Source: a virus
Lineage: Duplodnaviria > Caudoviricetes
DNA length: 64,000 nucleotides
IMG/VR virus record: IMGVR_UViG_3300012984_000010
Reading direction: 5' to 3' (one strand)
A model generated the notes under the pieces. The model had not been told where the DNA came from. It saw only the letters and a list, made by a program, of their open reading frames with translations, and did not search any database. This document shows, piece after piece, positions 3,231 to 32,939 of the stretch; the stretch's first letter is position 1; each line of letters opens with the position of its first letter. The position numbers were made by a program, and so were the translations under genes.

Positions 3231-3254
3231 ACTGATCCTTCTCTTGGTAGAGTT

Positions 3255-4051: not shown

Positions 4052-4152
4052 GTGATCATGAGAACCTTGCCTTTCGTTTGTTCGGGTTCGAGGCAGTCTT
4101 ACACCGTAAGGGAGGCCATCACAAAAAGTCCTTTTGCACCCGCTATAAGGAG

Positions 4153-4779: not shown

Positions 4780-4780
4780 A

Positions 4781-5859: not shown

Positions 5860-6357
5860 TTATAGGCTCATCGCCAAATCGAACAGGGACCGTTCGTCCT
5901 CAACCCTTAGGCTGGATACAGGCACTTCCCCAATCACATTCTCATATCCCATCAGATAAGCCCGCCATTCCTTGGAATAGAACCCCAAGCTGGGAACACC
6001 TAGATACTGAGTCGAGTTCCACATCCGCACATTACAGGGACAGGCTTGCACCAGGCAATTGATTCTATCCTGGCTGACCGGAACCCCAAGAATCATGACT
6101 ATGGGGGATTCTCTCTCCGATCTGCCGGCAGGCGTCACCTCCACGTACTCGGCCGGTTCTGCCTTGAGTAGTTTGAGGACCGAGGTCAAAGCTGTGATCG
6201 AGCCTTTAAATCGGGGGAACTGCTTCCCCTTACAGGCCACGAACCAAATCTTATCCGAAGCAATCCCCCAAGCTGTGCCTTGAGGGTCAATGACGGTGAA
6301 GGGTTGATTGAACACAGGATCCTCCGATCCTACGAATCTAAAAAGAGAGTCAGTCAT
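5860..6357 (-). CDS. Hypothetical protein
   Basis: Start overlaps MTase stop; C-terminus SLFDLAMSL. Confidence 0.65.
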   Translation of the reverse strand: MTDSLFRFVGSEDPVFNQPFTVIDPQGTAWGIASDKIWFVACKGKQFPRFKGSITALTSVLKLLKAEPAEYVEVTPAGRSERESPIVMILGVPVSQDRINCLVQACPCNVRMWNSTQYLGVPSLGFYSKEWRAYLMGYENVIGEVPVSSLRVEDERSLFDLAMSL

Positions 6358-7624
6358 TCGACATAGCCAGATCAAAGAGATCTTTTTCAGCGTGCGCTTC
6401 AGCATGGTCTGCCCGCACCAGCTCAACCCGCTTGAGGGAGGTCTCATAAGATGGTCGATACCGTTCAATTCCAGTGAAGCTGCAACCTTCCTCAATAGCG
6501 GCATGCAAAGTAGAACCACTGCCACAATAAGGGTCCAGGGTCAGGCCTCCCTTGGGAGTCACCATCCGGACCAACCACCGCATGACCGCCAGCGGTTTCT
6601 TGGTGTTATGTTGGTTCTCGATCCGCCCATCAAGGGTCGCCTCTTTGGTGGAGGTCTTGGGGCAATACATGAACGGTACAGGGAAGACGTTGAAGTACCG
6701 GATCGTGTTGGCCTTCTGGTCTTCCAGCTCAGCTACAGGGCAGCCCAACGCCCCATTGGCATCAACGAACACCAGGTTGGCTGGAACTCGTCCCAATGGA
6801 TGACACACAATCCCATTGCCTGGAGGAGCAGCGATCTTCTTCGCGTCAGGCTTGTGGGTGTTGCCGCTACGCTTCCAGCCGTCAGAACGATCTGGTTCCT
6901 GCCAATCCGTGTAGACACGGCAGCCGTCGATATTGATACCCCCACAACCCCATTTCCTGATGTTCTCCACCACTGTTCCATCCAATGGTTTGCGGAACAT
7001 CATGACAGGCTCCCAAGCGGGCTTGAGATTGGTGTGCCAGCCATCCCACTGTTTGGCTTCCTCGGAAGCAGGAGCAGTGATGGTCAGTTCACCCGTAGGA
7101 CTGTTAGGCGCTCCCGTCGTGTAGGTGCCACCTTTGAGCTTGGTGGACGTCATCGCATTCCCACCGGCCTTGTAGCGATGAATCACCTCACGCTCTAATC
7201 CTAACTCCTTGTCGATCTGCTTCGAGATGTTGAGACCATGGTTCATCCCCATCCCTTGGATCCATTGTAGGGCAGGGTATTCCTCCGACAGGGTGTCCCG
7301 TAGTTCAAAGCCCGCCATTCTGATCCCCATTGAGATCAAGTCCCATGTGCGGGTCCCACCAAAGCTCAGCAGATACCCACCTGGACGAAGGACTCGATAG
7401 GCTTCTTTCCAGACCGCCACTGACGGGATATCCCAATCTGCCTTCATGAAGTCACCCGTCTTCAATGCGGCACCCCCCAAGAAGGCAAGTATTTCTTCAG
7501 GGGTCGGGTCCTTATCACCTAGACCGTACGGTACATCGGTAACAATCGAGTGGTAGGTATTGTCTGGTATTTGTTTGAGTATTTCGAGACAATCACCCAA
7601 CAGAACTTGATTCTCAAACTCCAT
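6350..7624 (-). CDS. DNA N6-adenine/N4-cytosine methyltransferase
   Basis: DVPYG catalytic motif, H.T.KP..VMRWLVRM, LDPYCGSGST SAM-binding motif. Confidence 0.9.
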   Translation of the reverse strand: MEFENQVLLGDCLEILKQIPDNTYHSIVTDVPYGLGDKDPTPEEILAFLGGAALKTGDFMKADWDIPSVAVWKEAYRVLRPGGYLLSFGGTRTWDLISMGIRMAGFELRDTLSEEYPALQWIQGMGMNHGLNISKQIDKELGLEREVIHRYKAGGNAMTSTKLKGGTYTTGAPNSPTGELTITAPASEEAKQWDGWHTNLKPAWEPVMMFRKPLDGTVVENIRKWGCGGINIDGCRVYTDWQEPDRSDGWKRSGNTHKPDAKKIAAPPGNGIVCHPLGRVPANLVFVDANGALGCPVAELEDQKANTIRYFNVFPVPFMYCPKTSTKEATLDGRIENQHNTKKPLAVMRWLVRMVTPKGGLTLDPYCGSGSTLHAAIEEGCSFTGIERYRPSYETSLKRVELVRADHAEAHAEKDLFDLAMSND

Positions 7625-7855
7625 GATTGGAGCCTATACACCAGGTTTTGGCCAAACGCCGTATTCTGTAGCCATCTTTGGCTGTGCCGCCATGAAGGCC
7701 TCCGCACAAGGCAAACAGGGGTGCTGCCAGTAACCATTGAAATCAAGCTTACCAGAGCCGAACGTCAACTCTTCAGCAATACCACTGCTGACCCCACATT
7801 CAAGATTTCCGCATGCTTTAGGTCTGCGCTTGGACATCACCGTCCTAACACCAGA

Positions 7856-18460: not shown

Positions 18461-19027
18461 TTAGTCCTGATCCAGCTGATTAGTCGGGTCGAAATCTTTC
18501 AGCAATTTATTCTTCCGTAGCTTGAGCAGACAGTTTCTGAATTGAGGGTTATCCAGAGCCACCATACGGTATTTCTGGCTGACCCTCTTTTGCTGCACCC
18601 TGTTGATACATTCGGCACCACTCCAACCGTAGAGGAAATGCAGTGCTAGTGCCGAGACCAATCCAGAACGGTTGATGCCAGCAGCACACGTTACTAGTAC
18701 TTTCTGCCCTTGGTTGACTGCTTCCGCCACTTGTCGCCCCGCATCTACGGCTATTTGCAGCAAGTCTCGTGGGATCTTTTGAGTGTAATCGTCGCTGTTG
18801 GGGGCGTACAGGATCCGGACTCCAGGGTACTCCTCGGCCGGATCTTGCAATTCTTCTGCACAGAACACCAGCATATTGAAGCCAGCCTTCGCTACACTAG
18901 CTTGGACCTTTGGATAAGGACCTTGCCAGAGGTTGGGGACTATTTCGTCTGCCCCCAACCTCTGTAACTCAAGCTCGAAAGCTTTGATCTCAGTCTCCGC
19001 TACCTCTATCAATTTCTTGACGCTCAT
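18461..19027 (-). CDS. Dual-specificity/tyrosine phosphatase-like protein
   Basis: CX5R motif CAAGINRS. Confidence 0.88.
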   Translation of the reverse strand: MSVKKLIEVAETEIKAFELELQRLGADEIVPNLWQGPYPKVQASVAKAGFNMLVFCAEELQDPAEEYPGVRILYAPNSDDYTQKIPRDLLQIAVDAGRQVAEAVNQGQKVLVTCAAGINRSGLVSALALHFLYGWSGAECINRVQQKRVSQKYRMVALDNPQFRNCLLKLRKNKLLKDFDPTNQLDQD

Positions 19028-21005
19028 CTTTGATGTTCTCTTCCCTCAACGACTCAAGTTCAGCCTTGAAGCCACCTGAGAGGATGGGGAACCTACACCA
19101 GGAACGTGGGTCTAGATTCTTGCGGTCGACGTTGAATGCAGGAGCGTACCGCTCCCTCTTCCACTGATTCCGATACCAGAGTGTGAAGAACTTCTCGATG
19201 TGTCGAGCGATAGTCGGCTTGCTACCTTGGCTCTTCAGCGTTCTGTAGACTTCCAGCGGGCTCTTCTTTTCCAGAATCGCCAGGTCCTCAATCTGCTCCA
19301 GGACATCGTACGGCATCAAGTCCGTCTCGTCCGTTTGATTGCTTCCTGGGCGCAGTTCGGCGGTCGGCTGTTGGTTGACCACATGCTTCAAGCAGGGGTA
19401 GTCAAAGAAGGATTGGGTTCTCAACCACTTGAGGAGGAAAGCCTTTCCGATCCCTCCAATGGGGGCGATGCTACCAGAAGTGTCTCCATCCATGGTGCAA
19501 TAGCCAACCGCCGCCTCGGAACGATTGCTGGTTGTGATCAACAACTTCTGCTCGATGTTGGCCACCATCCAAATGCTAGGGGAACGCACTCGGGCCTGGA
19601 TGTTCTGAAGCGCCAAGTCGTCAGTCTCCCAGGACAGGTCTCTTCCCAACGCATGGGCGATCTTTTGCGTGTATTGGTCCACCAGCCCGTCTACGTCGAT
19701 GGCGAGGAACTTGGCCTCAATCCCCTCAGCCACCTTCCTGGCAGCCGTATAGGTCACCTCAGAGCTGTTCTTGGTGCTCTGATACATGCAGGTCAGGATC
19801 TGATTGAATTCGGTATCTGGAGGCAACCTTAAGTGCTTGAGTAATCCTTCTTGGCCGAAAGTATCACACCCTGTATTCCACATCATCTTCACCAAAACCG
19901 CACAAGCAGCGGAATCGGCGCCACCACTGAGAGAGATGACGAACCCTTTGGAATAGGCCTTCCGCATGTAGTCACATAGGGCCAGCGGAATCGCTAATGA
20001 GAAATCTTCAGCGTCCTCTGTGTCGGCTACTCCCAAATCACGGGTAGAAACACTTCCACTGAATTCAGGGATCTCTACAACACCGCGAACAGCCTGGATT
20101 TCGGACACATCTGGCATGAAACTAGCGGTGCTGGATTGTTTGGTCCTAGTAGCGTCGATATCAACCACGGCCGTCGTCAGAGTGACAGGCTTGAAGGAGA
20201 ACCGTTCCCCTCTGGCCACCATACTGCCGTTCGTAGCAATCAGGTTGCCCCCATCGTAGATGGCTCGGCCCGCCTCGTTACCTAGGAGATTGGCGTACAC
20301 GTACGTAACTCCAAAGGCCCTGGAACCCTCCAAGATGAAGCGTTGCCGTACCTGATATTTTCCGAAAGCAAAATGGCTGGCCGACGGGTTGAGGATCAGG
20401 TCCACCCCATGTTGAGAGAGTTTGACCCCAGGACGATTGGCCACCCAAGCATCTTCACAGATCTCGAAGCCAACACGGAAGGCCCTTCTATTTGTATCTT
20501 GTAGGTCAAAGTCGAACAGCAGGTCTCCGATTGGAATAGGGTGTTCAGCATCATCCTGAGATGAGTCGATTCTGCAGAAACCTGAAAGTACCTTCACGCC
20601 CGCCGGCCAGGGTTTGAACCAACGAGGTTCGTAGTGCAGACCGTCGCCCGCCAGATGTTGCTTGGCCACGAACCCCAGCACTTCTCCTGAATCAATCATG
20701 GCTGAGACGTTGTATAGGGCGTTCTGAAACAGGAAAGGGAGACCCACACAGACCTTCATCGAGATGTTGTGTGAATCCATGTATTCGGCAATCTCACGTA
20801 ATGTTTCCAGGGCCCTCTCTTGTACATCGTGTGAATGGAAGTGATCTTCACAACCATATCCAGTGATGCAGAGTTCCGGCAAACAGAGAATGTTGACGCC
20901 GGCCTCCTTTGCGGCATCGATGGCAGAGATGATGTTCTGGTAGTTACCTTCCCAATCGAGAGGGGTTTGATTTAGCGAAGCGGCGCCGACTTTGATGAGT
21001 TGCAT
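18990..21005 (-). CDS. nadE: Glutamine-dependent NAD+ synthetase
   Basis: CN-hydrolase domain (LPELCITGY, EICED) plus SLSGGADS, NIQAR.R, SEAAVGYCTMDGD, PTAEL. Confidence 0.95.
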   Translation of the reverse strand: MQLIKVGAASLNQTPLDWEGNYQNIISAIDAAKEAGVNILCLPELCITGYGCEDHFHSHDVQERALETLREIAEYMDSHNISMKVCVGLPFLFQNALYNVSAMIDSGEVLGFVAKQHLAGDGLHYEPRWFKPWPAGVKVLSGFCRIDSSQDDAEHPIPIGDLLFDFDLQDTNRRAFRVGFEICEDAWVANRPGVKLSQHGVDLILNPSASHFAFGKYQVRQRFILEGSRAFGVTYVYANLLGNEAGRAIYDGGNLIATNGSMVARGERFSFKPVTLTTAVVDIDATRTKQSSTASFMPDVSEIQAVRGVVEIPEFSGSVSTRDLGVADTEDAEDFSLAIPLALCDYMRKAYSKGFVISLSGGADSAACAVLVKMMWNTGCDTFGQEGLLKHLRLPPDTEFNQILTCMYQSTKNSSEVTYTAARKVAEGIEAKFLAIDVDGLVDQYTQKIAHALGRDLSWETDDLALQNIQARVRSPSIWMVANIEQKLLITTSNRSEAAVGYCTMDGDTSGSIAPIGGIGKAFLLKWLRTQSFFDYPCLKHVVNQQPTAELRPGSNQTDETDLMPYDVLEQIEDLAILEKKSPLEVYRTLKSQGSKPTIARHIEKFFTLWYRNQWKRERYAPAFNVDRKNLDPRSWCRFPILSGGFKAELESLREENIKDERQEIDRGSGD

Positions 21006-21008
21006 CGT

Positions 21009-22631
21009 TCAACCTTTCAAACACGCTTGAGCCAGCACTTCTTGCTTGCGTGCTCGGCATTGATTGATCAGACGTTGAGTTTCAGCAGAGAAGACTGGGG
21101 GTTCTCTTCTGATGCTACCTTGGTTCGGCGGCAGCACGTCGTCCGATTCCTTGTCGGTGAGAAGGTAGTAGGAATCGAGGGAGATCTGTTCTCCCTCTTG
21201 AGCGATGATGCTGGCCGGCATCCGATGAGCATCCACACCAGGGCGGATGCGCCAAATCACCGGCATGCCTGGAATTGATTCTTTGGCACTCTTGGGTTCA
21301 TCTCCGAACTTCATTGTTGAGAGACTACCACTCTGAGAAAGCTTCCACACCGCCGCCACATCGTCCCGTGAGAAAGTGGGCCACTCTGGCTTGGTGAAGT
21401 AGCCCCCATATCCGTACGCTTGTCGATCCATCGGCCATCGAACCTGCTTACGCAATTCTTCGAATTCGACCGTCAGTTCCTTGTTCCAACCGCTCTCAAG
21501 AGCTAGACGAGGCTCCAACCCTTTCTCCCTCGCCAACGCGACCGTGTAGGTGTAATGACTGCGGACGTTGGCTTCCGAGTCGAACCGGATCCCCGCATCA
21601 CGTCCGGGGTCTTCCGCGATCACCCGCAACGCACTGGGAACGCCAGACATGAGGGTACTGGTGGTGTCGGGCAGGTAGAAGAGAAAGCCTGGAAACCGGT
21701 CTTTCATCGCCGTATAGGCGGCGTAATCGTCGAGATTGAACCGCTGTGGGTGTTCGTGACCCATCGTTCCGACTGGGATCATGTTGAGTTTTTGAGCCAA
21801 CTCAACGTTAGAGGTACGCAGCACACCCGCGTCCTTGATGGCCTTGAGCACAATCTCATGTTGCTCTGAACACGAGACTCCTCGCATTCCGACCTCGAAC
21901 AAGCGATCAGGGTTTTCCACGATACCTACCAGTTCTTTGGCACGTCGGTAAACCCACTCGTAATAAGCCTGCTCACGAACCTCGATATTGAATTGAGGTA
22001 GGAGTTTGATCTTGGATCCTAGGTCGATTGCTAGAGAATCCAGCGTTTCCAGGATGATGTCCTTTTCTCGCTGACAGGTGGCGAATCGAATACGCTCAGC
22101 CAGCTCGGCAGTCTTCCCCGCCTTGTAGAGTGTCGCGAGCTGGATTCGAAAGTTTAGCTGGAGAGCGGTAGGTTCCAACCAGCTTGAAACCGCACTAGGG
22201 CCCTTGGCGAAAAAAGCTGGCTCCCGATTGTAGAACCAGGAACCCTTCGGGACTGAACTGATGCGTAGATTGTCCTTGAGGGAGAAAGCCTTACGAAAAC
22301 CAGCACCTACCTCATAGTTGTGTTGGCTCAAGTAATCGTAATCGGTAGGATCGTTGATCACGTCAGGTAGGAGGTCTTTCACGAACTTCTTGACATCTAC
22401 CGGCATGTAGTGCCAACCATTGACCCCGCCCTTGCGGTGTGAGTAGCCGAAAGTCTCCTCGCGAAGGGCAAAGCCCGCCTCAGCCATCGAAATCTTGTAT
22501 GCGTCTGTACGTAGCAATTTGGTCATGACCAACATTACACCAAATAATCTGATTTTCCGGCAGGAATCTGCTCTTAAGATCCTGATCCCTATGACCGTAG
22601 GTACATGTGACGGCACTGAAATGCCGTCCAC
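21009..22631 (-). CDS. pncB: Nicotinate/nicotinamide phosphoribosyltransferase
   Basis: LRTDAYK.SM, GTMGHE, PDT, GIRFDS. Confidence 0.75.
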   Translation of the reverse strand: MDGISVPSHVPTVIGIRILRADSCRKIRLFGVMLVMTKLLRTDAYKISMAEAGFALREETFGYSHRKGGVNGWHYMPVDVKKFVKDLLPDVINDPTDYDYLSQHNYEVGAGFRKAFSLKDNLRISSVPKGSWFYNREPAFFAKGPSAVSSWLEPTALQLNFRIQLATLYKAGKTAELAERIRFATCQREKDIILETLDSLAIDLGSKIKLLPQFNIEVREQAYYEWVYRRAKELVGIVENPDRLFEVGMRGVSCSEQHEIVLKAIKDAGVLRTSNVELAQKLNMIPVGTMGHEHPQRFNLDDYAAYTAMKDRFPGFLFYLPDTTSTLMSGVPSALRVIAEDPGRDAGIRFDSEANVRSHYTYTVALAREKGLEPRLALESGWNKELTVEFEELRKQVRWPMDRQAYGYGGYFTKPEWPTFSRDDVAAVWKLSQSGSLSTMKFGDEPKSAKESIPGMPVIWRIRPGVDAHRMPASIIAQEGEQISLDSYYLLTDKESDDVLPPNQGSIRREPPVFSAETQRLINQCRARKQEVLAQACLKG

Positions 22632-22649
22632 AACAGAAAGAAGATACCG

Positions 22650-22862
22650 TTGTCACATAGAGTTGAATCAAATAGCGACTTTCGTAAGATACTAGACGCC
22701 GCCAAGGCTCAAGGTTGGGTGACCGAACACACCAAGAAAGGACATTGGAAGTTCATGGCTCCCAACGGCAAGGACATGGTTCACACTGCCGGTTCGCCCA
22801 GCGACATGCGGGCCATCCGGAACTTCACGGCCCGTTTGCGTCAACGAGGATTGCGGATATGA
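22650..22862 (+). CDS. HicA-like dsRBD-fold protein
   Basis: GW...TKKGHWKF..P.G...V....PSD.RA..N...L...G. Confidence 0.7.
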   Translation: MSHRVESNSDFRKILDAAKAQGWVTEHTKKGHWKFMAPNGKDMVHTAGSPSDMRAIRNFTARLRQRGLRI

Positions 22863-23233
22863 AATGGGATATCGACAAGGCTTTGAAGGCCTTGGAAGAC
22901 GGCAGCCGTATCTCAGGTACGACCGTCAGCAGAATTCAGATCTCAGGAGAAGACCACGCTCTAAAGTTCGGGATCCGTTTCACGGCGGCCGAACGGGAGA
23001 GAGGGTGCGCTTTCGTGTGGTGTTTGGCGTTAGGCATCATACAGCTACCGAAGCTGTTCTTCTACGACCGTGAGATCCACGGCGCATACATCAAGGCCAA
23101 GAAGGCTATCAAGAATCTCTCCGACGATGAACTGCTGTACTACGCCCTCCGAAAGCCCAGGCGGAGCAACAGCTTCATGGCGGCCAAAAGCCTGAAGAAA
23201 CGAAAGCCAAAGGCTCCGTCCGCTTCGGTGTAA
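22859..23233 (+). CDS. Hypothetical protein
   Basis: ATGA overlap with HicA-like stop. Confidence 0.65.
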   Translation: MKWDIDKALKALEDGSRISGTTVSRIQISGEDHALKFGIRFTAAERERGCAFVWCLALGIIQLPKLFFYDREIHGAYIKAKKAIKNLSDDELLYYALRKPRRSNSFMAAKSLKKRKPKAPSASV

Positions 23234-23242
23234 TACCGGAGC

Positions 23243-24202
23243 ATGAGACCAGCAACGCTTACAGGATTGGCTGTGGGGGATTCATTAGGAATGCCCTTTG
23301 AGACACACCACTTCACTTCTGAGGCGTTGCTGGCTTGGGACGGAACCTTCCAGTCGGGCGCCACCAACACCATCCAGCCCAATCTTCGGCCAGGTCAGTG
23401 GACCGATGATACCAAGATGGCGTTGGCGTTGGCCAACAGCCTGATCAGCAGTGAGACCTATGACCCTATCGGGGCTACTCAACACTACATCGAGTGGTAC
23501 GACTCTAACGACCACCGAGGGATGGGTAAAGCTACCAAAGAAGCTTTAGAACGAATCATCCAAGGTCATCATTGGATGAACTCTGGTGTCAAATCACAGG
23601 GTAACGGAACGGCTATGAGGGTGGCCCCTTTGGGGTTGTTCTACCATCATAGCCCAGAGGCTGCTGCTGCTGCTGCTCGTATTGATGCCAGAATCACCCA
23701 CAACTCCCAGCTTTCAATTGAGGGTTCGGTCATTGTGGCGGTGGCGGTGGCGATTTTGGCCAGTGGTGCTCCTAAGGTGGTTGATTCTGCAGATGGGGAT
23801 CATGACTTGATTCGCCGAGTCTTGTATTACTCAGAAACCTGTGCTCTGTGGGATCGACTGGTAGACGTCAGGGAATGTGTTGAAGAACTCCCCGCAGATC
23901 CTACCGATAGACTCAAAGCTTCAATGAAAACCCTTTTGGAGATGGGGACTGGAGCACACGTATTGCAGACCGTGCCCGCCGCTTTTCTCTGCTTCCTGGC
24001 TACCAGTAGCTTTGCAGAAGCGGTCGATTTGGCGGTCCGAGTAGGCGGAGATACCGACACCACCGCCGCCATCACAGGAGCGTTGGCAGGGACGTTTTAC
24101 GGTACTGAACAGGTCAAACCCTATTTGGGTGTGTTGGAAGAAGCTGCTCTGTTGAGCCATTTGGAGAACAGGCTTTTTCTATCCGCTCCCAGAATCCCCT
24201 GA
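23243..24202 (+). CDS. ADP-ribosylglycohydrolase (DraG/ARH family)
   Basis: GDSLG, WTDDT, GNGTAMR, GGDTDT. Confidence 0.93.
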   Translation: MRPATLTGLAVGDSLGMPFETHHFTSEALLAWDGTFQSGATNTIQPNLRPGQWTDDTKMALALANSLISSETYDPIGATQHYIEWYDSNDHRGMGKATKEALERIIQGHHWMNSGVKSQGNGTAMRVAPLGLFYHHSPEAAAAAARIDARITHNSQLSIEGSVIVAVAVAILASGAPKVVDSADGDHDLIRRVLYYSETCALWDRLVDVRECVEELPADPTDRLKASMKTLLEMGTGAHVLQTVPAAFLCFLATSSFAEAVDLAVRVGGDTDTTAAITGALAGTFYGTEQVKPYLGVLEEAALLSHLENRLFLSAPRIP

Positions 24203-24230: not shown

Positions 24231-24545
24231 ATGTCTAACACCATTCAAGAAATCAAACCCCTACACGACAACGTATTGATCCAGGTTATCGAGAGGGAGG
24301 GGGTGTCGAAAGGAGGGATTTACATTCCTCCTACCGCTAAGGATCATGAACTTTCTTGGAGAGCTTCAGTGATTGCAGTAGGTCCGGGACGTCTCCTTGA
24401 GAACGGTCGTCGGGTGGAACCTAACGTTCGTGTAGGTGAAACAGTACTGTTGGGCAAGTACATGGGTACTGAGCTGGAGATTGAAGGTATCAAGTACGTG
24501 ATAGTCAAGGAAGAACATATCCTTGGCGTCGAAGAGACTGCCTGA
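24231..24545 (+). CDS. groES: Co-chaperonin GroES
   Basis: IKPLHDNVLI...SKGGIYIP...AVGPG...V.VG..VL.GKY.G.E. Confidence 0.95.
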   Translation: MSNTIQEIKPLHDNVLIQVIEREGVSKGGIYIPPTAKDHELSWRASVIAVGPGRLLENGRRVEPNVRVGETVLLGKYMGTELEIEGIKYVIVKEEHILGVEETA

Positions 24546-24784
24546 TGCCATCATTGGATTCCGATCTAGAGACGATGAATCGGGCAGCCTTGCTGACCGA
24601 GATCAAGAAACTCAGGGCAGGAATCCGCAAACACAGGGACGCTACCGGCCATAACTTGTGTTGGTACGTCCCTGAGCTCTGGAATCTGTTACCTGAGAAA
24701 GTTGACCCGAATCCGGAGATCCCACCTCGGGATGAATTTCTCAGGTGTTGCGCTGAATACAGAAAGTCCTTGGGAAATCCGTAA
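24545..24784 (+). CDS. Hypothetical protein
   Basis: Coupled ORF, RKHRD..GH.LCW..PELW.LLPE. Confidence 0.65.
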   Translation: MPSLDSDLETMNRAALLTEIKKLRAGIRKHRDATGHNLCWYVPELWNLLPEKVDPNPEIPPRDEFLRCCAEYRKSLGNP

Positions 24785-25092
24785 TGTCGAACCCCTATGT
24801 AGGCCGTCCTGTGATGGAGGCCAGAAGCTTCGCCCTGACCTCTGAGCTATCGTCTGCTAGGGGTTATAGTTTCTCAGCCACTACGTCAGGTAGTCCAAAA
24901 CGCTGCCCTTGCAAGTATTGCGGTCAGAAGCATCCCAATACTTTGATGGCTGTGTTTTGTTGTCTGTTCGCACCTAGTCCAACGGGTTGGTGTGCTTGGT
25001 GTGGAGAAGAAGTGGGGTTCAGGTGTAGAAGTTTTTGCACAATCGCTTGTGCACACTCTTTCCGTGAAGATGTGTTGATTAGCCGAAAACGC

Positions 25093-25164
25093 GGGGGCGT
25101 AGCTCAGCGGTAGAGCAAGGGATTCTAAAACCCTAGGCCGTGGGTTCGAATCCCACTGTCCCCT
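25093..25164 (+). tRNA. Amber suppressor tRNA (CUA), short variable loop, U73
   Basis: GGGGGCG/TGTCCCC; AGGGA-TTCTAAA-ACCCT with CTA at 25125-25127; T-arm GTGGG-TTCGAAT-CCCAC. Confidence 0.9.
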
Positions 25165-25169
25165 CTCAA

Positions 25170-25260
25170 GCCTTCGTCGCTCAGCGGCCAGAGCAGCAGA
25201 TTCTAAAACTGCGTGAGTCCTCATGGATGAAGATCGTGGGTTCGAGTCCCACCGAAGGCA
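25170..25260 (+). tRNA. Amber suppressor tRNA (CUA), long variable arm, A73 (Leu-like)
   Basis: GCCTTCG/CGAAGGC-A; GCAGA-TTCTAAA-ACTGC with CTA at 25203-25205; 23-nt variable region. Confidence 0.88.
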
Positions 25261-25262
25261 CC

Positions 25263-25589
25263 CTAGGTAAGAGCCAGTGACAACCCTCTGCAAAGCTTCT
25301 TGGCAGCAGGACCCAGCAACGCAACTGCCGTGAGTTCGTTGTTTCGGTCTGGTTCATTGAACGATGCCGAGAATATGTTCCGCATCTAAGCCTTGTCCAG
25401 AAGCACTTTAAGTGTAGGTTCGTCCTCCACTACCAGAAAGGCCAGTGTGTTGGAATCGTGGTACCACTCTTTGAACGGTTCAGGGTGCTGCATACTTAGC
25501 TCTGTCAGCGCGTGAGCCGACTGAACAGCTTGTTGTCCAGGCGACAAGTCAACCCTGGTGATCAGGTACAGTTTAGAGGAGGGTTTCAT
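25263..25589 (-). CDS. PTH2-like peptidyl-tRNA hydrolase with in-frame TAG at 25386-25388
   Basis: KLYLITRVDLSPGQQAVQSAHA ... LLDKA*MRNIFSASFNEPDRNNELTAVALLGP; the domain continues past TAG to give 108 codons. Confidence 0.8.
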
Positions 25590-26040
25590 TTTCCCAAAAG
25601 GATTCGTGCTCTTGGAACGAATCCTCCAATCGTCTGAGGGCCTCTTGCTTCTGTTTGGTGAAATGGTCGGACACCATCTGGATGATGTTCGGAGGTACGC
25701 CGTCCATCTCCAGAGTTTCTTTCCAATGAGCCTTAGGGGTATCCCCATAGGTGCTCTTTTCTCCAACCACGTAACTGCTTTTGCTGCTGTATACTCGACC
25801 TAGATCAGTATCGAGGTACAGATAGAGCCTCAACATGGCGTCAGAGCAGCAGCCACAGCTGTGACGGAGTTCCGCCTCGGTCGCCACCACAGCCGATGAG
25901 ATCAACCTTTCCCATCTGTGTCGATCCGTAACTTTGGCCAGATCTGGGAAACGACTTCTAAGCTGTTCAAGGCGAGCTGCTTCGGCTAGGCTGGCCGTCG
26001 CCTCTTTCTTCAGTCGTTCGATCTCTTTTTCGACGCTCAC
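25573..26040 (-). CDS. Hypothetical protein (amber-gated operon)
   Basis: 155-aa ORF, HSCGCC motif, GTGA-coupled. Confidence 0.7.
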   Translation of the reverse strand: MSVEKEIERLKKEATASLAEAARLEQLRSRFPDLAKVTDRHRWERLISSAVVATEAELRHSCGCCSDAMLRLYLYLDTDLGRVYSSKSSYVVGEKSTYGDTPKAHWKETLEMDGVPPNIIQMVSDHFTKQKQEALRRLEDSFQEHESFWENETLL

Positions 26041-26945
26041 GAGACACCTCCCAAAAGAGCCTTGGCGTACTGTAGGGCGTCACGAATCTTCTCCACATAA
26101 TGTCCTGAGAAGATCTCACTACGATGGGTAACCCCATCCTTGTAGATCACCAGCTTGACCGGTCCGGTCTTGACCGCCCATTCAAAGTCAATCGTGTAAG
26201 GCTGGGTAGGAGTCTTGGAAGCAATCCGCTTGCAGAATCGGCTCTCTTCTAGCTTGAGTTCTGGGGCCCACCCTTCGTAGGTCCAACCAATACCATGGTT
26301 CTTCTCAGGGTTGAAGATAGGGTCTTTCAGCCCTTCAACGAAGGCTAGGTAGAGAGGGTCGTTGTTGAAGAAGTCGGTCCACCAAAGGTCAGACTCTCGG
26401 CGACGATTGGCCCTATTGCGTGTCTCCTCAGCCGAGACCCATAGCTTATCGGCCTCATCGTCTGAGATCATGTCGTACAGCAAATCCTCTTCATTGAAGT
26501 GAATCCGCCCCCACCACGCCACCACCTCATTGTTCGAGAAGTCTAGTGTGGGTCTTTCTTTGGCTCGCTTGTAGTAGCCCTCTGAGTCTTTCTGGTGAGC
26601 ACCCAAAGCTCTCTTCCCACTCTCATCGTAATCGCAATGAGTCCCTACGCTCTCCTGGAAGTCTCGATGACGTCGATACAGTTCTCCGATCTGTTCATCT
26701 TCGAGCCGAACGATTGCGAAGTTGCGGCCAGTCAGATGTCCCTCTTCAACATCTGAGCTCAAACCTACTACTCCGTCCAACACGCATTCGAACCAATGTT
26801 CGTGACCTCCCATCAGGATGACACCAGACAATACCCCATCCCAATAACTGCAGTGCCACAACATCTTGAAATCGACGTCTCGCTTCTTGTGGGGCAGGTC
26901 TCGGATGAGACGGAAGTCGGACTTTGCCTCAGCCAGAGTGGTCAT
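26037..26945 (-). CDS. Hypothetical protein (amber-gated operon)
   Basis: 302-aa coupled ORF. Confidence 0.7.
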   Translation of the reverse strand: MTTLAEAKSDFRLIRDLPHKKRDVDFKMLWHCSYWDGVLSGVILMGGHEHWFECVLDGVVGLSSDVEEGHLTGRNFAIVRLEDEQIGELYRRHRDFQESVGTHCDYDESGKRALGAHQKDSEGYYKRAKERPTLDFSNNEVVAWWGRIHFNEEDLLYDMISDDEADKLWVSAEETRNRANRRRESDLWWTDFFNNDPLYLAFVEGLKDPIFNPEKNHGIGWTYEGWAPELKLEESRFCKRIASKTPTQPYTIDFEWAVKTGPVKLVIYKDGVTHRSEIFSGHYVEKIRDALQYAKALLGGVS

Positions 26946-27433
26946 CAGGCCAACACCCTAGACAGGAGGGATGAGAACCAGTTCTTCGGCTTGACCGGTA
27001 CCACAACCATTGGGGCATCTGGTGGTTGTGAAGTACCCTTCCCATACATCAATTCGTAAATCTGCAAAGGATCCCAAGTGTTGATGACCTGACGCTCTTC
27101 CTCAGTCCAGGTTTTGGCGTCCTCATTGATGCCAAAAGCTCTGTAGATGTGCCACGAAACTGTCTTTGGATACGGAGGTTCTGAACACTTAGCTTCCAAA
27201 TCCTGGTATGGGCGACCACGAAGAATAGCGTAGGCAATGTAGAGGTGTCGGAGCGAGTCTTGTGTACCGTTCACGTAGTCTAGACGTAGCTGATAGCGCT
27301 CTGGACCCGTATCAGCACTGGACGTGACACAGTTCTTCAGCTCATGCAGCTTGGTCCTAAGAACCGGCTTTTCAGCCGAAAGGTCTTTGATCTTCTGTCG
27401 AATGTGGGCAATCGCGGCTTTATGGGAATTCAT
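26945..27433 (-). CDS. Hypothetical protein, first gene after amber/RAPP leader
   Basis: 162 aa, RHLYIAYAILRGRPY..LE; SD AGGAG lies in a hairpin. Confidence 0.75.
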   Translation of the reverse strand: MNSHKAAIAHIRQKIKDLSAEKPVLRTKLHELKNCVTSSADTGPERYQLRLDYVNGTQDSLRHLYIAYAILRGRPYQDLEAKCSEPPYPKTVSWHIYRAFGINEDAKTWTEEERQVINTWDPLQIYELMYGKGTSQPPDAPMVVVPVKPKNWFSSLLSRVLA

Positions 27434-27526
27434 AATCGTCTCCTGTAGATAGCTAGTACACTGAATGGGGGCAGTGTACGCTACAGGAGGGGCTCGCGAC
27501 TTCGGACAATTCAGCTACAAGAACAT
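27434..27526 (-). promoter_or_regulatory. Translational attenuator leader: ATG TTC TTG TAG ... RAPP plus SD-sequestering hairpin
   Basis: Readthrough gives MFL*LNCPKSRAPPVAYTAPIQCTSYLQETI in frame with the 27433 ATG; stems CTCCTGTAG/CTACAGGAG and GTACACTG/CAGTGTAC. Confidence 0.75.
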
Positions 27527-27535
27527 GACCGCACC

Positions 27536-27564
27536 ATCCTACGTTCTTCCGCCCTAACTGTCAA
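27536..27564 (-). promoter_or_regulatory. Sigma70-type promoter
   Basis: TTGACA-17 nt-TAGGAT, 9 nt before the leader ATG. Confidence 0.75.
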
Positions 27565-27566
27565 GA

Positions 27567-27947
27567 TCAACGATGGTATATTTCTACAGGGATGTAGGGC
27601 GAAGCTTCCAACAGCAATTCGTGCATGTGTCGACTACCCTTCCCCAACCCTTTATCCTTGTGGAAGCACACGGCTAGGTCAAAATAGGTGCCGTCCGTGA
27701 AGGGGTGTTCGGTTTTCAGCATATGCTCGTTACGCAAGGGACCGGCCGAGGGCCAGGTTCTCCCATCTGCCTCGGCTGGGTAAGCCCTCACGATGAAACC
27801 TAGACGCTTGCCTACGTAGCCTCCGATCCGGTCAGCTCCCTGACAATCCCCGTGGATCAAAGTACTACCACCAGGCAGCCGGCCCAACACCTCTTCTATT
27901 GAGCGCTGTTCGACCCACTTTCTGGAACCAAAAATCAGTACTTTCAT
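27567..27947 (-). CDS. SLOG-family (DUF2493/YspA-like) protein
   Basis: VLIFGSR.W...LIHGDC.GAD..G...AGPLRN..ML. Confidence 0.8.
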   Translation of the reverse strand: MKVLIFGSRKWVEQRSIEEVLGRLPGGSTLIHGDCQGADRIGGYVGKRLGFIVRAYPAEADGRTWPSAGPLRNEHMLKTEHPFTDGTYFDLAVCFHKDKGLGKGSRHMHELLLEASPYIPVEIYHR

Positions 27948-27988
27948 CTAGTTACCTTACACCAATCACAACTGGTGTAAGGGTCAGC

Positions 27989-28228
27989 ATGCTCCCCAAC
28001 ACTCCCAAAACACGTGACCTCATCAACAATTTCACACAGGACTTGATTGTGCTCGTCCGAGAAGCCTTGCTGGAAGAGGTTCACCTTCGTCTAAAAGAAC
28101 GGAATGCTCAGCCAGCTCTGTCGACGGGCAAACCCCTCAAGAGGTTGGCAGCCAAGCCGACTGTGAAGGCTCTCAAGCCAAAGGCTCGAATCAAAGCTGT
28201 TCCAACCCCCATGTTGATGGCCGTCTAG
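27989..28228 (+). CDS. Hypothetical Lys-rich protein
   Basis: Preceded by GGTGTA motif; followed by hairpin terminator. Confidence 0.55.
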   Translation: MLPNTPKTRDLINNFTQDLIVLVREALLEEVHLRLKERNAQPALSTGKPLKRLAAKPTVKALKPKARIKAVPTPMLMAV

Positions 28229-28293
28229 GGAACAATATTCCACGTGGAAAGGCTCTGTCGGGATCACCCTGCAGAGCCTTTCACATTTTGTTC

Positions 28294-28321
28294 TTAACTT
28301 CCCCCAAACTCTTCCGTTCTA
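28294..28321 (+). promoter_or_regulatory. Class I promoter-like motif (representative copy)
   Basis: TTAA-N15-TCCGTTCTA, 6 nt before ATG 28328. Confidence 0.75.
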
Positions 28322-29468: not shown

Positions 29469-29933
29469 ATGGACGAGATAGCATTCACCAGCGTCAGATT
29501 ACCGTTCGGTTGGTTGGGCAACATGTCGCCCTTCCCGCTCGAATATGACGGCCTTCTCTGGAGGACCTCAGAAGCGTTGTTCCAAGCCAGAAGGTTCGGC
29601 AACGAGCTGAGTATTCGTGAGCTGATCCGTGCTGAGAAATCGCCAATGGCAGCCAAGATGGTGGCAAAGAAGTACCACCACTTGATGCAGCTCAAACCGT
29701 GTAGCCCAGAAGATGTGTCGATGATGTCAGAGGTTCTGAACCTCAAGCTGACCCAACACCCGAATCTCCAAGACCAACTTAAGGCAACCTCAGGTCGCCA
29801 GATCATAGAAGATTGTACCAAGCGTCAGCATGGTACTGGTTTGTTTTGGGGAGCTGCCCGACAGGCAGATGGCAGCTGGGAAGGCGCCAACACCCTGGGA
29901 CATCTCTGGATGCGCATTAGAGACACATTATAA
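29469..29933 (+). CDS. NADAR (YbiA-like) family protein
   Basis: GWLGNMSPFP, TSEALFQA.RF, KLTQHP.L, FWG, G.N.LG.LWM.IR. Confidence 0.9.
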   Translation: MDEIAFTSVRLPFGWLGNMSPFPLEYDGLLWRTSEALFQARRFGNELSIRELIRAEKSPMAAKMVAKKYHHLMQLKPCSPEDVSMMSEVLNLKLTQHPNLQDQLKATSGRQIIEDCTKRQHGTGLFWGAARQADGSWEGANTLGHLWMRIRDTL

Positions 29934-30053
29934 GTGGTGGTTCTGAATCAGTCACCAAGGAAACCGGTGACTGTGGTTGGGCTTCGGCTATACCTTGGAG
30001 GCTGATTTAGAACTACCACTTAACTTCGCTGGTGTTGGTCCGTTATACCCAGT

Positions 30054-30650
30054 ATGAACCGAGCCGAATTCTTCGCCAAACTGGACCCTTTTTTCTCTCC
30101 TACCAGTCTGCTACAGATTCAGGTGGCCTACACGTTCGCCAAGTTCGGCCATCGGGCTCAGGTGCGGAAAGAGAAGGATGAGTCTGGCAAGCCCCTTCGG
30201 TACTTTGAGCACGTTCGACGGGTAGCGGTCAACGTTATCGACGATGCCAGGATCCCCCTCCCAGAATTGGTGGTGGCGGGACTGATCCACGATGGTATCG
30301 AGGATACACGAGACCTGACCCCAGAGATGATCCAACACCTCTTTGGGGAAGATGTGGTGCGGATCGTCAAGACTCTGTCCAAAGTGCCGGAACAAGGTTA
30401 TTTGGAACGATTCTATCTGTCGACTGATTGGCGTGCCTACGTCGTCAAAGCGTGTGACCGTCTCGACAATCTCAGGTCTTTGGGCGCCGCCTCTGCGGAA
30501 TTTCAGGCAAAACAGATCAAAGAGACTCGGGAGAAGTACTATCCGCTGTTCGACCGGATGGTTGAGCTTACCCCTCCAGAGTACCTAGCTAGGGTTCGAA
30601 ACCTTCGAGATCTGGTGATCAAGCAGACGGAAGGCCACCGTATTCCTTAG
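30054..30650 (+). CDS. RelA/SpoT-type HD hydrolase (Mesh1/SAH-like)
   Basis: FA.FGH..Q.RK...Y.EH..RVA, LIHD.IED, VKACDRLDNLR. Confidence 0.85.
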   Translation: MNRAEFFAKLDPFFSPTSLLQIQVAYTFAKFGHRAQVRKEKDESGKPLRYFEHVRRVAVNVIDDARIPLPELVVAGLIHDGIEDTRDLTPEMIQHLFGEDVVRIVKTLSKVPEQGYLERFYLSTDWRAYVVKACDRLDNLRSLGAASAEFQAKQIKETREKYYPLFDRMVELTPPEYLARVRNLRDLVIKQTEGHRIP

Positions 30651-31575: not shown

Positions 31576-31608
31576 CCCGCCATTACACCGTGCTGGTGTA
31601 CGATTAAC

Positions 31609-32893: not shown

Positions 32894-32939
32894 AGGAGGC
32901 CTCTCTAGTTGGGGAGTTTGATCTACACCATTCGGTGTA

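What the first reader, a model, noticed from the sequence alone, without database searches (positions are those of the whole stretch)
27434..27564. Leader ORF ATG-TTC-TTG-TAG...K-S-R-A-P-P with an SD-sequestering hairpin
The leader ATG (27526) lies 9 nt after the -10 box, and codon 4 is TAG (27515-27517). Readthrough gives LNCPKSRAPP. The Pro-Pro codons overlap the 5' arm CTCCTGTAG, which pairs 9/9 with CTACAGGAG containing the SD of gene 27433, and an inner 8-bp stem GTACACTG/CAGTGTAC is also present. A ribosome stalled at RAPP would melt the stem and free the SD, while termination at TAG would leave it closed. The leader is also in frame with the downstream ATG, so a fusion product is possible. 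This resembles ermC/secM-type translational attenuation, but with stop-codon readthrough as the input.
Basis: partly seen in the sequence, partly recalled or inferred. Interest (0 to 1): 0.9.

Follow-up and report, generated by a model that had tools for sequence, protein, structure and literature searches.

The report
Amber-gated ribosome-arrest leader in huge phage
In front of an unknown gene of a huge soil phage lies a tiny leader reading frame that relatives conserve: its UAG stop must be read through before ribosomes reach an Arg-Ala-Pro-Pro stalling motif that sits on the hairpin hiding the gene's ribosome-binding site, so it looks like a natural sensor of stop-codon suppression by the phage's own tRNAs.

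Summary
The anti-SD:SD hairpin folds at -23 kcal/mol (z -5.25).

Seven diverged relatives (gene B protein 27-50% identical) keep the same spacer design:
- an invariant TTGACA and a TAnnnT-type -10, with an ATG 7-9 nt later;
- one in-frame TAG after 2-18 codons;
- then 4-6 codons and Ser-Arg-Ala-Pro-Pro in the same frame, despite several length changes.

In the SRAPP codons only the third positions of Arg and of the second Pro vary. The stem covaries.

Two well-formed tRNA(CUA) genes lie 2.2 kb away. The last gene of the same gene string, a Pth2-like hydrolase, needs TAG read-through to complete its domain, and relatives carry its TAG at four different positions.

I conclude that this is a translated arrest-peptide leader gated by amber suppression. 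No step has been shown experimentally. The in-frame fusion with gene B is not conserved, so I treat it as incidental.

I found no published natural example. This scan has noted the same design on at least six other genomes; those notes are unchecked and I do not count them as evidence. I class it as a new variant of arrest-peptide attenuation, of high interest.

The parts
27567..27947 (-). Gene A, a 126-aa YspA/SLOG-like (YAcAr) protein. Its stop codon lies 2 nt before the -35 hexamer.
   Evidence: Pfam PF10686 6e-6 and phrog_289. The syntenic homologue is called YAcAr in relatives.
27536..27564 (-). Sigma-70-type promoter-like site TTGACA-17-TAGGAT. The leader ATG follows 9 nt later, so the mRNA would be leaderless or nearly so.
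   Evidence: TTGACA is invariant and the -10 keeps TAnnnT or CAnnnT (A at position 2, T at position 6) in all 8 type-1 loci and in L178 and L182. The -10 to ATG distance is 7 or 9 nt in type 1, and 6 nt in L178 and 7 nt in L182 by my own reading of the sequences printed.
27515..27526 (-). Mini-ORF ATG TTC TTG TAG. The TAG at 27517-27515 is the proposed gate.
   Evidence: The ATG and a single in-frame TAG are conserved in 8 of 8 type-1 leaders, with 2, 3, 3, 3, 4, 5, 6 or 18 codons before the TAG.
27485..27514 (-). Read-through segment L N C P K S R A P P. The RAPP codons are 27496-27485.
   Evidence: SRAPP is invariant as a peptide. Arg is CGA, CGT or CGC, and the second Pro is CCT, CCC or CCG. 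No in-frame ATG, GTG or TTG lies between TAG and SRAPP in any locus (codon listings, read by eye).
27440..27489 (-). SD-sequestering hairpin. Outer stem: 27489-27481 with 27448-27440. Inner stem: 27479-27472 with 27463-27456. AGGAG is at 27444-27440.
   Evidence: Folds (-23 kcal/mol, z -5.25). The outer stem covaries in relatives. Each relative folds its own anti-SD:SD helix.
26945..27433 (-). Gene B, 162 aa, all-helical, function unknown. It is the gene whose initiation site is masked.
   Evidence: a family of 57 proteins from metagenomes. AlphaFold model pLDDT 86.5 with no convincing fold match.
26037..26945 (-). Gene C, 302 aa, function unknown. Its start overlaps B's stop (ATGA).
25573..26040 (-). 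Gene D, 155 aa, function unknown. It overlaps C by 4 nt.
25263..25589 (-). Pth2-like gene of 108 codons, with an in-frame TAG at 25388-25386 (codon 68), ending at a second TAG (25265-25263).
   Evidence: Pfam PTH2 scores 28.6 bits (cut-off 23) over residues 6-100 only when the TAG is read through. The N-terminal piece alone scores 20.5 bits.
25093..25165 (+). tRNA with anticodon CUA (amber suppressor), class I.
   Evidence: ARAGORN. Rfam tRNA 66.3 bits.
25170..25262 (+). tRNA with anticodon CUA (amber suppressor) and a long variable arm.
   Evidence: ARAGORN. Rfam tRNA 52.8 bits.

Best explanation
The 133-nt spacer before gene B is a translated regulatory leader, and it would work in these steps.

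1. A conserved promoter (TTGACA-17-TAGGAT) starts an mRNA at or within about 3 nt of the leader AUG. The leader would therefore be translated in leaderless mode.
2. With no suppression, ribosomes terminate at UAG (codon 4), about 26 nt before the hairpin. The hairpin then keeps the AGGAG of gene B paired, and B stays untranslated, as do C, D and the Pth2-like gene, whose starts overlap or abut the preceding stops.
3. When the phage's tRNA(CUA) species outcompete release factor 1, ribosomes read through and reach Arg-Ala-Pro-Pro. They arrest there with the first Pro codon in the P site.
4. The arrested ribosome covers the whole outer 5' arm (27489-27481). The SD is freed and other ribosomes can start on gene B.

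The operon is thus made only once amber suppression works. Its last gene needs the same suppression a second time.

Shown here: the sequence anatomy, the fold, and the conservation of frame, TAG, RAPP, promoter and stem; the nearby suppressor tRNA genes; and the amber-split Pth2-like gene.

Inferred: the transcription start, leaderless initiation, read-through, the arrest and the unmasking.
For: (1) Synteny. The order A, spacer of 115-170 nt, B (followed by C where a homologue is called) is kept in L003, L006, L008, L186, L187, L188 and L189. Their B proteins are 27-50% identical to the window's.

(2) One frame in all eight loci. The leaders read:
- window: MFL-TAG-LNCPK-SRAPP
- L003: MFL-TAG-LPPPHK-SRAPP
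- L006: MYL-TAG-LPPPHK-SRAPP
- L008: MFCS-TAG-LTTPLR-SRAPP
- L186: MMTTS-TAG-LLSR-SRAPP
- L187: MFLFEL-TAG-IHRSSQ-SRAPP
- L188: 18 codons-TAG-IPVPHR-SRAPP
- L189: ML-TAG-LPRRQ-SRAPP
Each has exactly one TAG and no other stop, and every length change is a multiple of 3.

(3) Within TCG CGN GCC CCT CCN, only nucleotides 6 and 15 vary. Both are third codon positions, with three alleles each.

(4) More distant B loci encode R-A-P-P or R-G-P-P with other codon families (AGT AGG GCC CCC CCG; GCT AGA GCC CCA CCC; GCT AGA GGC CCA CCC). This points to selection on the peptide.

(5) Of about 170 chance matches to the promoter plus ATG..GTAGCTG pattern in IMG/VR and metagenomes, none has R[AGS]PP or RAGP in the frame read from the ATG. 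Only the true relatives do.

(6) Stem. CUCC/GGAG is invariant and four further pairs change on both sides. 88.7% of cells are paired against 77.5% in shuffles (0 of 500 reach the observed value). The covariation score is 0.286 against 0.107 (0 of 500), and the slid controls reach at most 0.083.

(7) tRNA(CUA) genes lie near B-family genes in the window, L003, L006, L189, L180, L183 and L184. The last three, very distant, also begin with ATG, 1-3 codons, then TAG.

(8) The Pth2-like gene needs TAG read-through. Relatives carry its TAG at four different positions. TAG is therefore decoded as sense in this module.

(9) RAPP is an established arrest motif, with RAP-tRNA in the P site and Pro-tRNA in the A site. 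It is refractory to EF-P and depleted from bacterial proteomes (PMC10951233; PMC12992588).
Against: - Nothing is experimental, and no RNA run holds this DNA, so the transcription start is not known.
- In the window the AUG lies 9 nt after the -10. A 2-3-nt 5' UTR may weaken leaderless initiation.
- L003 and L006 have a C.A mismatch in the middle of the outer stem, caused by the synonymous change CCT to CCC.
- TCG, GCC and CCT never vary at their third positions. Nucleotide-level (anti-SD) constraint therefore contributes to the conservation of the block.
- The residues N-terminal of RAPP influence arrest strength (PMC10951233). They vary here, and the nascent chain is only 13 residues long at the arrest point.
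- In five relatives the leader ends at a TGA overlapping B's ATG. Simple transit and reinitiation could therefore suffice without a lasting arrest.
- TAG also ends at least 8 ORFs of 120 aa or more in the window, so suppression must be partial or timed.
- A subfamily (L178, L179, L182, L185) has R-x-P-P in the +1 frame relative to its ATG. The complete genome behind L182 shows no suppressor tRNA among about 27 of its 29 tRNAs. The gate is therefore not uniform across the family.
Confidence: 0.65

Rival explanations
1. Read-through-dependent translational coupling without a lasting arrest. Ribosomes that pass the TAG simply translate through the hairpin, open it, terminate at or near B's start codon, and reinitiate or let another ribosome bind. 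RAPP only slows them.
For: In L006, L008, L186, L187 and L188 the leader stops at a TGA overlapping B's ATG (ATGA). In L003 it stops 11 nt inside B. This is the classical coupling geometry.
Against: It does not explain why the four residues R-A-P-P are invariant while everything else in the leader drifts. It also does not explain why distant relatives keep RAPP or RGPP with different codons. In the window and L189 the leader runs in frame into B, so there is no termination near the start.
Confidence: 0.15
2. TAG is simply a sense codon whenever this operon is expressed. The leader would then be an ordinary RAPP arrest peptide responding to some other signal, and the TAG would carry no information.
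For: The Pth2-like gene of the same string also contains TAG as sense. Phages with reassigned TAG are known (10.1101/2021.08.26.457843).
Against: - The TAG is kept in 8 of 8 type-1 leaders near the N-terminus, and at codons 3-5 in three very distant loci, while the flanking codons change. A neutral sense codon would drift.
- In the window, standard code gives the best ORF tiling, 91.5%.
- No other gene is joined by TAG in the window.
- TAG ends at least 8 long ORFs.
Confidence: 0.1
3. A three-codon minigene plus a structural hairpin. Only ATG-TTC-TTG-TAG is translated (as a start-stop or drop-off element). The RAPP codons are kept merely because they form the anti-SD arm that tunes B translation down or serves RNA processing or stability.
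For: - CCCCUCC is the anti-SD and necessarily encodes Pro-Pro in one frame of three.
- The third positions of TCG, GCC and CCT are invariant.
- Hairpins over start sites are common in this genome.
Against: - The distance from TAG to SRAPP changes only by whole codons, and the ATG-to-TAG distance likewise.
- Arg and Ala lie outside the stem, yet they are invariant as residues while the Arg codon varies synonymously.
- Distant loci keep R-[AG]-P-P with AGR in place of CGN codons.
- Chance pattern matches never carry RxPP.
Confidence: 0.07
4. An N-terminally extended isoform of protein B (193 aa), made by amber read-through from ATG 27526.
For: In the window and L189 the leader is in frame with B and has no further stop. 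In L184 the B ORF itself starts MENT-TAG-....
Against: The frame relation is not conserved. Six of the eight type-1 leaders are out of frame with B. The segment after RAPP is not conserved as peptide. B has its own strong SD and ATG.
Confidence: 0.03

Closest known systems
RAPP-type ribosome arrest peptides (ApdA, ApdP, ApcA, and the Streptomyces RAPP/RGPP uORFs; SecM with RAGP)
   Same: An upstream ORF ends its conserved part with Arg-Ala-Pro-Pro. The motif lies just before or on an RNA helix that masks the initiation site of the next gene. The arrested ribosome would expose the SD (PMC7897499, PMC10951233, PMC12992588).
   Different: - The leader is only 12-30 codons long up to the motif and has no signal peptide or membrane segment. 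No pulling force can therefore relieve the arrest.
- The downstream genes are not sec or yidC genes but phage genes of unknown function plus a Pth2-like hydrolase.
- An in-frame UAG must be suppressed before the motif is reached at all.
- Initiation appears to be leaderless.
ermC, ermB and cat leader-peptide translational attenuation
   Same: A short leader ORF, with a ribosome paused in the leader that melts a hairpin holding the SD of the downstream gene.
   Different: The signal there is an antibiotic bound in the exit tunnel. Here the proposed signal is decoding of a stop codon, and the pause motif is RAPP.
Stop-codon recoding in phages with suppressor tRNAs (TAG reassignment; crAss-like, Lak and other phages)
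   Same: Phage-encoded tRNA(CUA) and in-frame TAG in a conserved protein gene (10.1101/2021.08.26.457843; PMC9523058).
   Different: In this 64-kb window the standard code fits best. TAG as sense is confined to this one gene string. TAG is used here in a non-coding-like regulatory leader, not to interrupt late structural or lysis genes.
Regulatory leaders that read out stop-codon decoding: the prfB +1 frameshift (RF2 autoregulation) and tnaC (own knowledge); engineered tna or trp leaders with an inserted UAG (PMC6412442)
   Same: An early in-frame stop codon whose decoding efficiency sets expression of what follows. The engineered switch uses exactly a UAG in a leader peptide plus a suppressor tRNA.
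   Different: prfB uses frameshifting and regulates its own ORF. tnaC senses tryptophan and acts on Rho-dependent termination. The UAG-in-leader switch is synthetic. I found no natural counterpart in four literature searches.

Membership tests
RAPP-like arrest peptides (ApdA/ApdP/ApcA class) | R-A-P-P (or RGPP, RAPG, RAGP) core at the arrest point | tested here: met
   SRAPP at 27499-27485. It is invariant in 8 of 8 type-1 relatives, with synonymous codon variation only.
RAPP-like arrest peptides (ApdA/ApdP/ApcA class) | A uORF directly upstream of the regulated gene, with an RNA helix masking that gene's SD that a stalled ribosome would open | tested here: met
   The 5' arm begins at the second base of the first Pro codon. 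The stem covaries.
RAPP-like arrest peptides (ApdA/ApdP/ApcA class) | The ribosome actually arrests with RAP-tRNA in the P site and Pro-tRNA in the A site | not testable with these tools
   This needs toeprinting, in vitro translation or cryo-EM.
RAPP-like arrest peptides (ApdA/ApdP/ApcA class) | An N-terminal signal or membrane segment, so that secretion force releases the arrest (monitoring substrate) | tested here: not met
   There are only 2-18 codons before the TAG and 4-6 after it. No hydrophobic segment is visible in the printed peptides.
RAPP-like arrest peptides (ApdA/ApdP/ApcA class) | The downstream gene belongs to the protein localisation machinery (sec, yidC) | tested here: not met
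   B, C and D match no Pfam, PHROG or NCBIfam family. The last gene is Pth2-like. Streptomyces RAPP uORFs also precede other kinds of gene (PMC12992588).
Phage stop-codon recoding (TAG read as sense through phage tRNA-CUA) | A phage-encoded suppressor tRNA with anticodon CUA | tested here: met
   Two genes at 25093-25165 and 25170-25262. Relatives L003, L006 and L189 have them too.
Phage stop-codon recoding (TAG read as sense through phage tRNA-CUA) | In-frame TAG inside conserved protein domains | tested here: met
   The Pth2-like domain is complete only with read-through. In relatives the TAG is at four different sites.
Phage stop-codon recoding (TAG read as sense through phage tRNA-CUA) | Genome-wide, or late-gene-wide, improvement of gene models when TAG is recoded | tested here: not met
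   Within the window the standard code tiles best (91.5% against 90.0%). No other genes fuse through TAG. TAG ends 8 ORFs of 120 aa or more. The rest of the roughly 475-kb genome was not examined.
Intrinsic transcription terminator or attenuator | A GC-rich hairpin followed by a U-tract | tested here: not met
   The hairpin is followed by ACGAUUAUG, and the scan reports no terminator there. Genuine terminators in this genome do have U-tracts.
Known RNA families (Rfam 15) | A match of the spacer to any covariance model | tested here: not met
   Only the two tRNAs scored above threshold in 24500-28300.

The most novel reading that the evidence does not exclude
This is a natural sensor of the state of the genetic code. 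The leader measures whether the phage's own amber-suppressor tRNAs beat release factor 1. Through a RAPP arrest, it switches on an operon (B, C, D and a Pth2-like hydrolase) that belongs to the suppression module itself. It would act as a checkpoint or feedback element for partial stop-codon reassignment. The sister leaders, with TGA and TAG in the ATG frame and RxPP in the +1 frame, may sense termination efficiency through frameshifting instead.
Probability: 0.55. Interest if true: 0.92.

Novelty: new variant of a known kind. Interest (0 to 1): 0.87.

Why it matters
How phages that carry suppressor tRNAs time or check the change in stop-codon meaning is an open question. This element would be the first natural cis-acting device that reads out suppression efficiency directly.

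It joins two separately studied phenomena: RAPP ribosome arrest and phage stop-codon recoding. It also mirrors a switch that synthetic biologists built by hand (UAG in a leader peptide).

It is small (about 100 nt) and self-contained. It can be tested in E. coli or in a reconstituted translation system, and could serve as a reporter of suppression.

It also marks the unknown proteins B, C and D as candidates for factors that act on termination, suppression or peptidyl-tRNA turnover.

Tried and rejected
- **Close DNA or protein relatives in the phage collection:** none.
- **First IMG/VR scans:** the scan with gene B alone and the scan with an 18-mer from the hairpin found nothing.
- **Whole genome:** not held for this window.
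- **RNA evidence:** no RNA holder is listed. The four holders of this DNA are soil metagenome runs, so no reads were laid.
- **Loose pattern TTGACA..CATGT..GTAGCTG:** I used those matches as a negative control.
- **Opal-suppressor idea (rejected):** I first read the tRNA upstream of the type-2 leaders as an opal suppressor (UCA). ARAGORN calls it tRNA-Glu(UUC) in L178 and L182, and calls nothing in L179, L181 and L185. I dropped the idea.
- **Function of B:** the AlphaFold model is good (pLDDT 86.5). Foldseek against PDB and the AFDB clusters, and the Atlas searches, gave no usable match.
- **B homologues in GTDB species genomes:** The host remains unknown.
- **Methyltransferase and TAG (rejected):** ORF 7840..7634 is in frame through a TAG with the methyltransferase at 7624..6350. 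The methyltransferase starts at its own MEFENQ with a typical N-terminus, so this is not evidence of recoding.
- **Terminator reading:** rejected, because there is no U-tract.
- **T4-style internal promoter inside the hairpin:** considered. I saw no promoter-like hexamers by eye, and I did not pursue it.

Full report
**1. What is in the window**

The finding lies on the minus strand, in the 133-nt spacer between two genes:
- gene A (27947..27567), a 126-aa YspA/SLOG-like protein;
- gene B (27433..26945), 162 aa, with no family match.

- TTGACA (27564-27559), a 17-nt spacer, and TAGGAT (27541-27536).
- Nine nt later, ATG TTC TTG TAG. The ATG is at 27526 and the TAG at 27517-27515.
- The same frame continues L N C P K S R A P P and stays open and in phase up to B's ATG.
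- CTCCTGTAG (27489-27481) pairs 9/9 with CTACAGGAG (27448-27440). The latter contains AGGAG, 6 nt before the ATG.
- An inner 8-bp stem joins 27479-27472 and 27463-27456.

The hairpin alone folds at -23 kcal/mol, z -5.25, and none of 200 shuffles folds as well.

**2. Why the window alone does not settle it**

- The promoter pattern is not enriched: 2 matches against 1.7 expected.
- Structured start regions are common in this genome. Gene B ranks 21st of 96 by energy and 20th by SD pairing.
- An anti-SD CCUCC encodes Pro-Pro in one frame of three.
- R[AG]PP turns up eight times in the six-frame translation of the window.

On this evidence alone the interpretation would have been a plausible guess.

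**3. Context**

*Origin.* The window is part of a very large phage-like genome from soil metagenomes.
- The exact B protein sits on contigs of up to 475 kb.
- The standard code gives the best ORF tiling, 91.5%.
- No other genes fuse when TAG is read through.
- TAG ends at least eight ORFs of 120 aa or more.

*Suppressor tRNAs.* Two well-formed tRNA genes with anticodon CUA lie at 25093-25165 and 25170-25262 on the plus strand. They converge on the end of the minus-strand gene string A-B-C-D (Rfam 66 and 53 bits).

*The Pth2-like gene.* I followed a lead from earlier notes of this scan and tested the last gene of that string (25589..25263).
- Read with its internal TAG (25388-25386, codon 68) as sense, it matches Pfam PTH2 over residues 6-100 with 28.6 bits (cut-off 23).
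- The piece before the TAG reaches only 20.5 bits.
- Human Bit1/Pth2 aligns across the TAG.
- Homologues in relatives each have one in-frame TAG, at four different positions. The contexts are LLDKA-x in the window, DET-x-LNH in L003 and L006, WH-x-VSN in L189, and DLT-x-GQQ in L008.

TAG is therefore read as sense in this module, and an amber codon in this gene appears to be selected for.

*Expression signals of the genome.* These bear on the leader.
- Classical SDs are rare.
- One promoter-like module is [C/G]TTAA[C/T], about 15 nt, CCGTT[C/A]TA, 6 nt, then ATG. It recurs 13 times.
- A second motif, GGTGTA followed by ATG after 8-15 nt (mostly 9-11), recurs at about 19 gene starts.
- In both, the ATG sits where transcription would start. 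Leaderless mRNAs therefore seem to be usual here.

**4. Relatives**

*Finding them.* Gene B by itself found nothing. Gene C has homologues at 46-66% identity, and their contigs are syntenic. A profile of the B proteins then found a family of 57 proteins, four further syntenic loci, and eight distant loci in IMG/VR.

*Type-1 leaders.* Eight different leaders share one design:
- The loci are the window, L003, L006, L008, L186, L187, L188 and L189. Their B proteins are 27-50% identical to the window's.
- TTGACA is invariant. The -10 keeps A at position 2 and T at position 6, and the ATG follows 7 or 9 nt later.
- Each has exactly one in-frame TAG, after 2, 3, 3, 3, 4, 5, 6 or 18 codons.
- Then come 4, 5 or 6 codons and Ser-Arg-Ala-Pro-Pro.
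- Each has an anti-SD:SD helix whose 5' arm starts in the Pro codons.

*Evidence that the frame is translated.*
- All length changes are multiples of three.
- No other stop lies in the path, and no alternative in-frame ATG, GTG or TTG lies between TAG and SRAPP.
- In the 15 nt that encode SRAPP, only the third positions of Arg (A, T or C) and of the second Pro (T, C or G) vary.
- The sequence after RAPP is not conserved as peptide.
- In five loci the leader ends at a TGA overlapping B's ATG, and in L003 it ends 11 nt inside B. Only in the window and L189 is it in frame with B. The possible fusion is therefore incidental.

*Evidence for the stem.*
- CUCC/GGAG is invariant.
- Four further pairs show compensatory changes: UGUAG/CUACA, GUUG/CAAC, UUUGGG/CCCAA, UUC/GAA and G/C.
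- 88.7% of cells are paired against 77.5% in shuffles (0 of 500). The covariation score is 0.286 against 0.107 (0 of 500). The slid controls reach at most 0.083.
- L003 and L006 have a central C.A mismatch.

*Negative control.* About 170 chance matches to the promoter plus ATG..GTAGCTG pattern never had R[AGS]PP or RAGP in the frame read from the ATG.

**5. More distant loci**

Three very distant B loci have a tRNA(CUA) just downstream of B:
- L180 is AT-rich. It reads ATG ATG TAG AAT ACA TAT AAA AAG CCT CCG TAA, and its CCUCC pairs with the SD.
- L183 reads ATG TCA TAG and continues in frame.
- In L184 the B ORF itself starts MENT-TAG.

Each again begins with ATG, 1-3 codons, then TAG.

A second subfamily comprises L178, L179, L182 and L185.
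- It keeps R-A-P-P, R-G-P-P or R-P-P-P with other codons (AGR for Arg), followed by an anti-SD arm.
- The motif lies in the +1 frame relative to the promoter-proximal ATG.
- That ATG frame runs into TGA and then TAG.
- The complete 176-kb genome behind L182 shows no suppressor among about 27 of its 29 tRNAs.
- My first idea of an opal-suppressor tRNA there was wrong.

This subfamily is unexplained. It shows that the peptide motif is under selection, because the codon families differ. It also shows that the gate is not the same in all lineages.

**6. Mechanism**

- RAPP arrests ribosomes with RAP-tRNA in the P site and Pro-tRNA in the A site. The arrest is robust against EF-P, and the motif is depleted from bacterial proteomes. 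Residues N-terminal of it modulate its strength (PMC10951233, PMC12992588, PMC7897499).
- With the first CCU (27490-27488) in the P site, the ribosome's downstream footprint covers the whole outer 5' arm (27489-27481) and part of the inner stem. The SD, about 45 nt downstream, would be free.
- A ribosome terminating at UAG has its P site on UUG (27520-27518) and does not reach the hairpin.

The most likely logic is therefore:
- no suppression: the hairpin stays closed and B is off;
- suppression: arrest at RAPP opens the SD, and B is translated along with the following genes C, D and Pth2-like, whose starts overlap or abut the preceding stops.

Only transcripts that start at the spacer promoter present the AUG at their 5' end. 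Read-through transcripts from gene A would keep B silent.

All these steps are inferred. The main rival is read-through with simple transit and reinitiation.

**7. Comparison with what is known, and novelty**

- The element works like the RAPP-type arrest leaders and like SecM-secA or ermC attenuation.
- As a family member it fails two features of the monitoring-substrate class: it has no signal or membrane segment, and the downstream gene is not sec or yidC.
- It adds a feature that none of them has, an obligatory in-frame stop.
- It shares tRNA(CUA) and sense TAG with recoded phages. It does not show their wide recoding, at least in this window.
- The nearest thing in the literature is synthetic: tna or trp leaders with an inserted UAG (PMC6412442).
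- Four literature searches, two of them aimed at such a switch, found no natural example.
- This scan has noted the same design on at least six other genomes, with follow-up reports of the same reading. Those are AI notes, and I did not use them as evidence.

**8. Verdict**

- The fusion idea is not supported as a general function.
- My confidence is about 0.9 that this is a real, conserved, translated cis-regulatory leader.
- My confidence in the specific mechanism (amber-gated arrest that unmasks the SD) is about 0.65.
- Novelty: a new variant of a known kind. Interest: 0.87.

Noticed in passing
window motif starts 28314+, 30040+, 43635+, 63289-, 63044-, 62730-, 61524-, 60516-, 59800-, 52230-, 49700-, 49322-, 39121-: A recurrent promoter-like module: [C/G]TTAA[C/T], about 15 nt, CCGTT[C/A]TA, then ATG. 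In 9 of the 13 sites the ATG follows after exactly 6 nt. The start codon therefore sits where transcription would begin, which suggests a phage-specific promoter class that makes leaderless mRNAs.
   Followed up: partly
window 27958-27979, 31584-31600, 32924-32939, 54814-54827, 57591-57607 and about 19 gene starts: GGTGTA followed by ATG after 8-15 nt (mostly 9-11) recurs at many gene starts. In short divergent spacers two copies form TACACC-N-GGTGTA palindromes. The pattern ACAC..GTGTA is enriched, with 13 matches against 3 expected. The inner stem of the finding's hairpin (GTACACTG/CAGTGTAC) resembles it. The motif could be a promoter, an operator or a hairpin; this is undecided.
   Followed up: partly
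window 25263-25589 (-); L003 about 7260-7580; L006 about 4620-4940; L008 about 3010-3340; L189 about 3960-4290: The Pth2-like genes of five related phages each carry one in-frame TAG, at four different positions. In the window the gene also ends with TAG, 1 nt from the convergent tRNA(CUA) gene. An amber codon in this gene appears to be selected for.
   Followed up: yes
L178 about 2320-2415, L179 about 2430-2520, L182 about 2390-2485, L185 about 2420-2500: Sister leaders in front of distant B homologues. The promoter-proximal ATG frame runs into ACN-TGA-A and then TAG. R-[A/G/P]-P-P (Arg as AGR, overlapping that TAG) lies in the +1 frame, and an anti-SD arm follows. No suppressor tRNA was found in the complete genome behind L182. 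These leaders may be gated by a frameshift, or may sense termination. Unexplained.
   Followed up: partly
L181 about 2330-2410; L180 about 2375-2410; L184 about 2470-2530: Further variants. In L181 a 25-codon leader ends S-R-E-P-P-TAG. In L180 the leader reads MM-TAG-NTYKKPP-TAA. In L184 the B ORF itself begins MENT-TAG.
   Followed up: no
L182 3015-3389: A phage-encoded tmRNA gene lies directly downstream of the B homologue in a 176-kb phage. tRNA-Glu(UUC) lies just upstream of the leader there and in L178. B-family genes sit in tRNA-rich, translation-related neighbourhoods.
   Followed up: no
window 27523-27514 and 27489-27480: The mini-ORF region TTCTTGTAGC is a near-repeat of the 5' arm CTCCTGTAGC (8 of 10). 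It could pair with the SD arm as an alternative partner using two G.U pairs. The minimum-energy fold of L003 uses this pairing. It is not conserved outside the window, L003 and L006 clade.
   Followed up: partly
window 7634-7840 (-) and 6350-7624 (-): A 68-aa Cys-rich ORF ends at a TAG and is in frame with the DNA methyltransferase that starts 9 nt later. The methyltransferase has its own typical N-terminus, so I read them as two genes and not as a recoded one.
   Followed up: yes
L003 163-1335 (-) and 6080-7231 (+): The related 464-kb phage carries two IS605 OrfB/TnpB-like genes. One is inserted between gene C and the Pth2-like gene, and the window's gene D is missing there.
   Followed up: no
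window 18990-24202 and 29469-30650: A cluster of NAD and ADP-ribose genes surrounds the module. It includes NAD synthase, a NAPRTase-like gene, an ADP-ribosylglycohydrolase, NADAR and an HD_4 hydrolase, plus Cpn10 in relatives.
   Followed up: no
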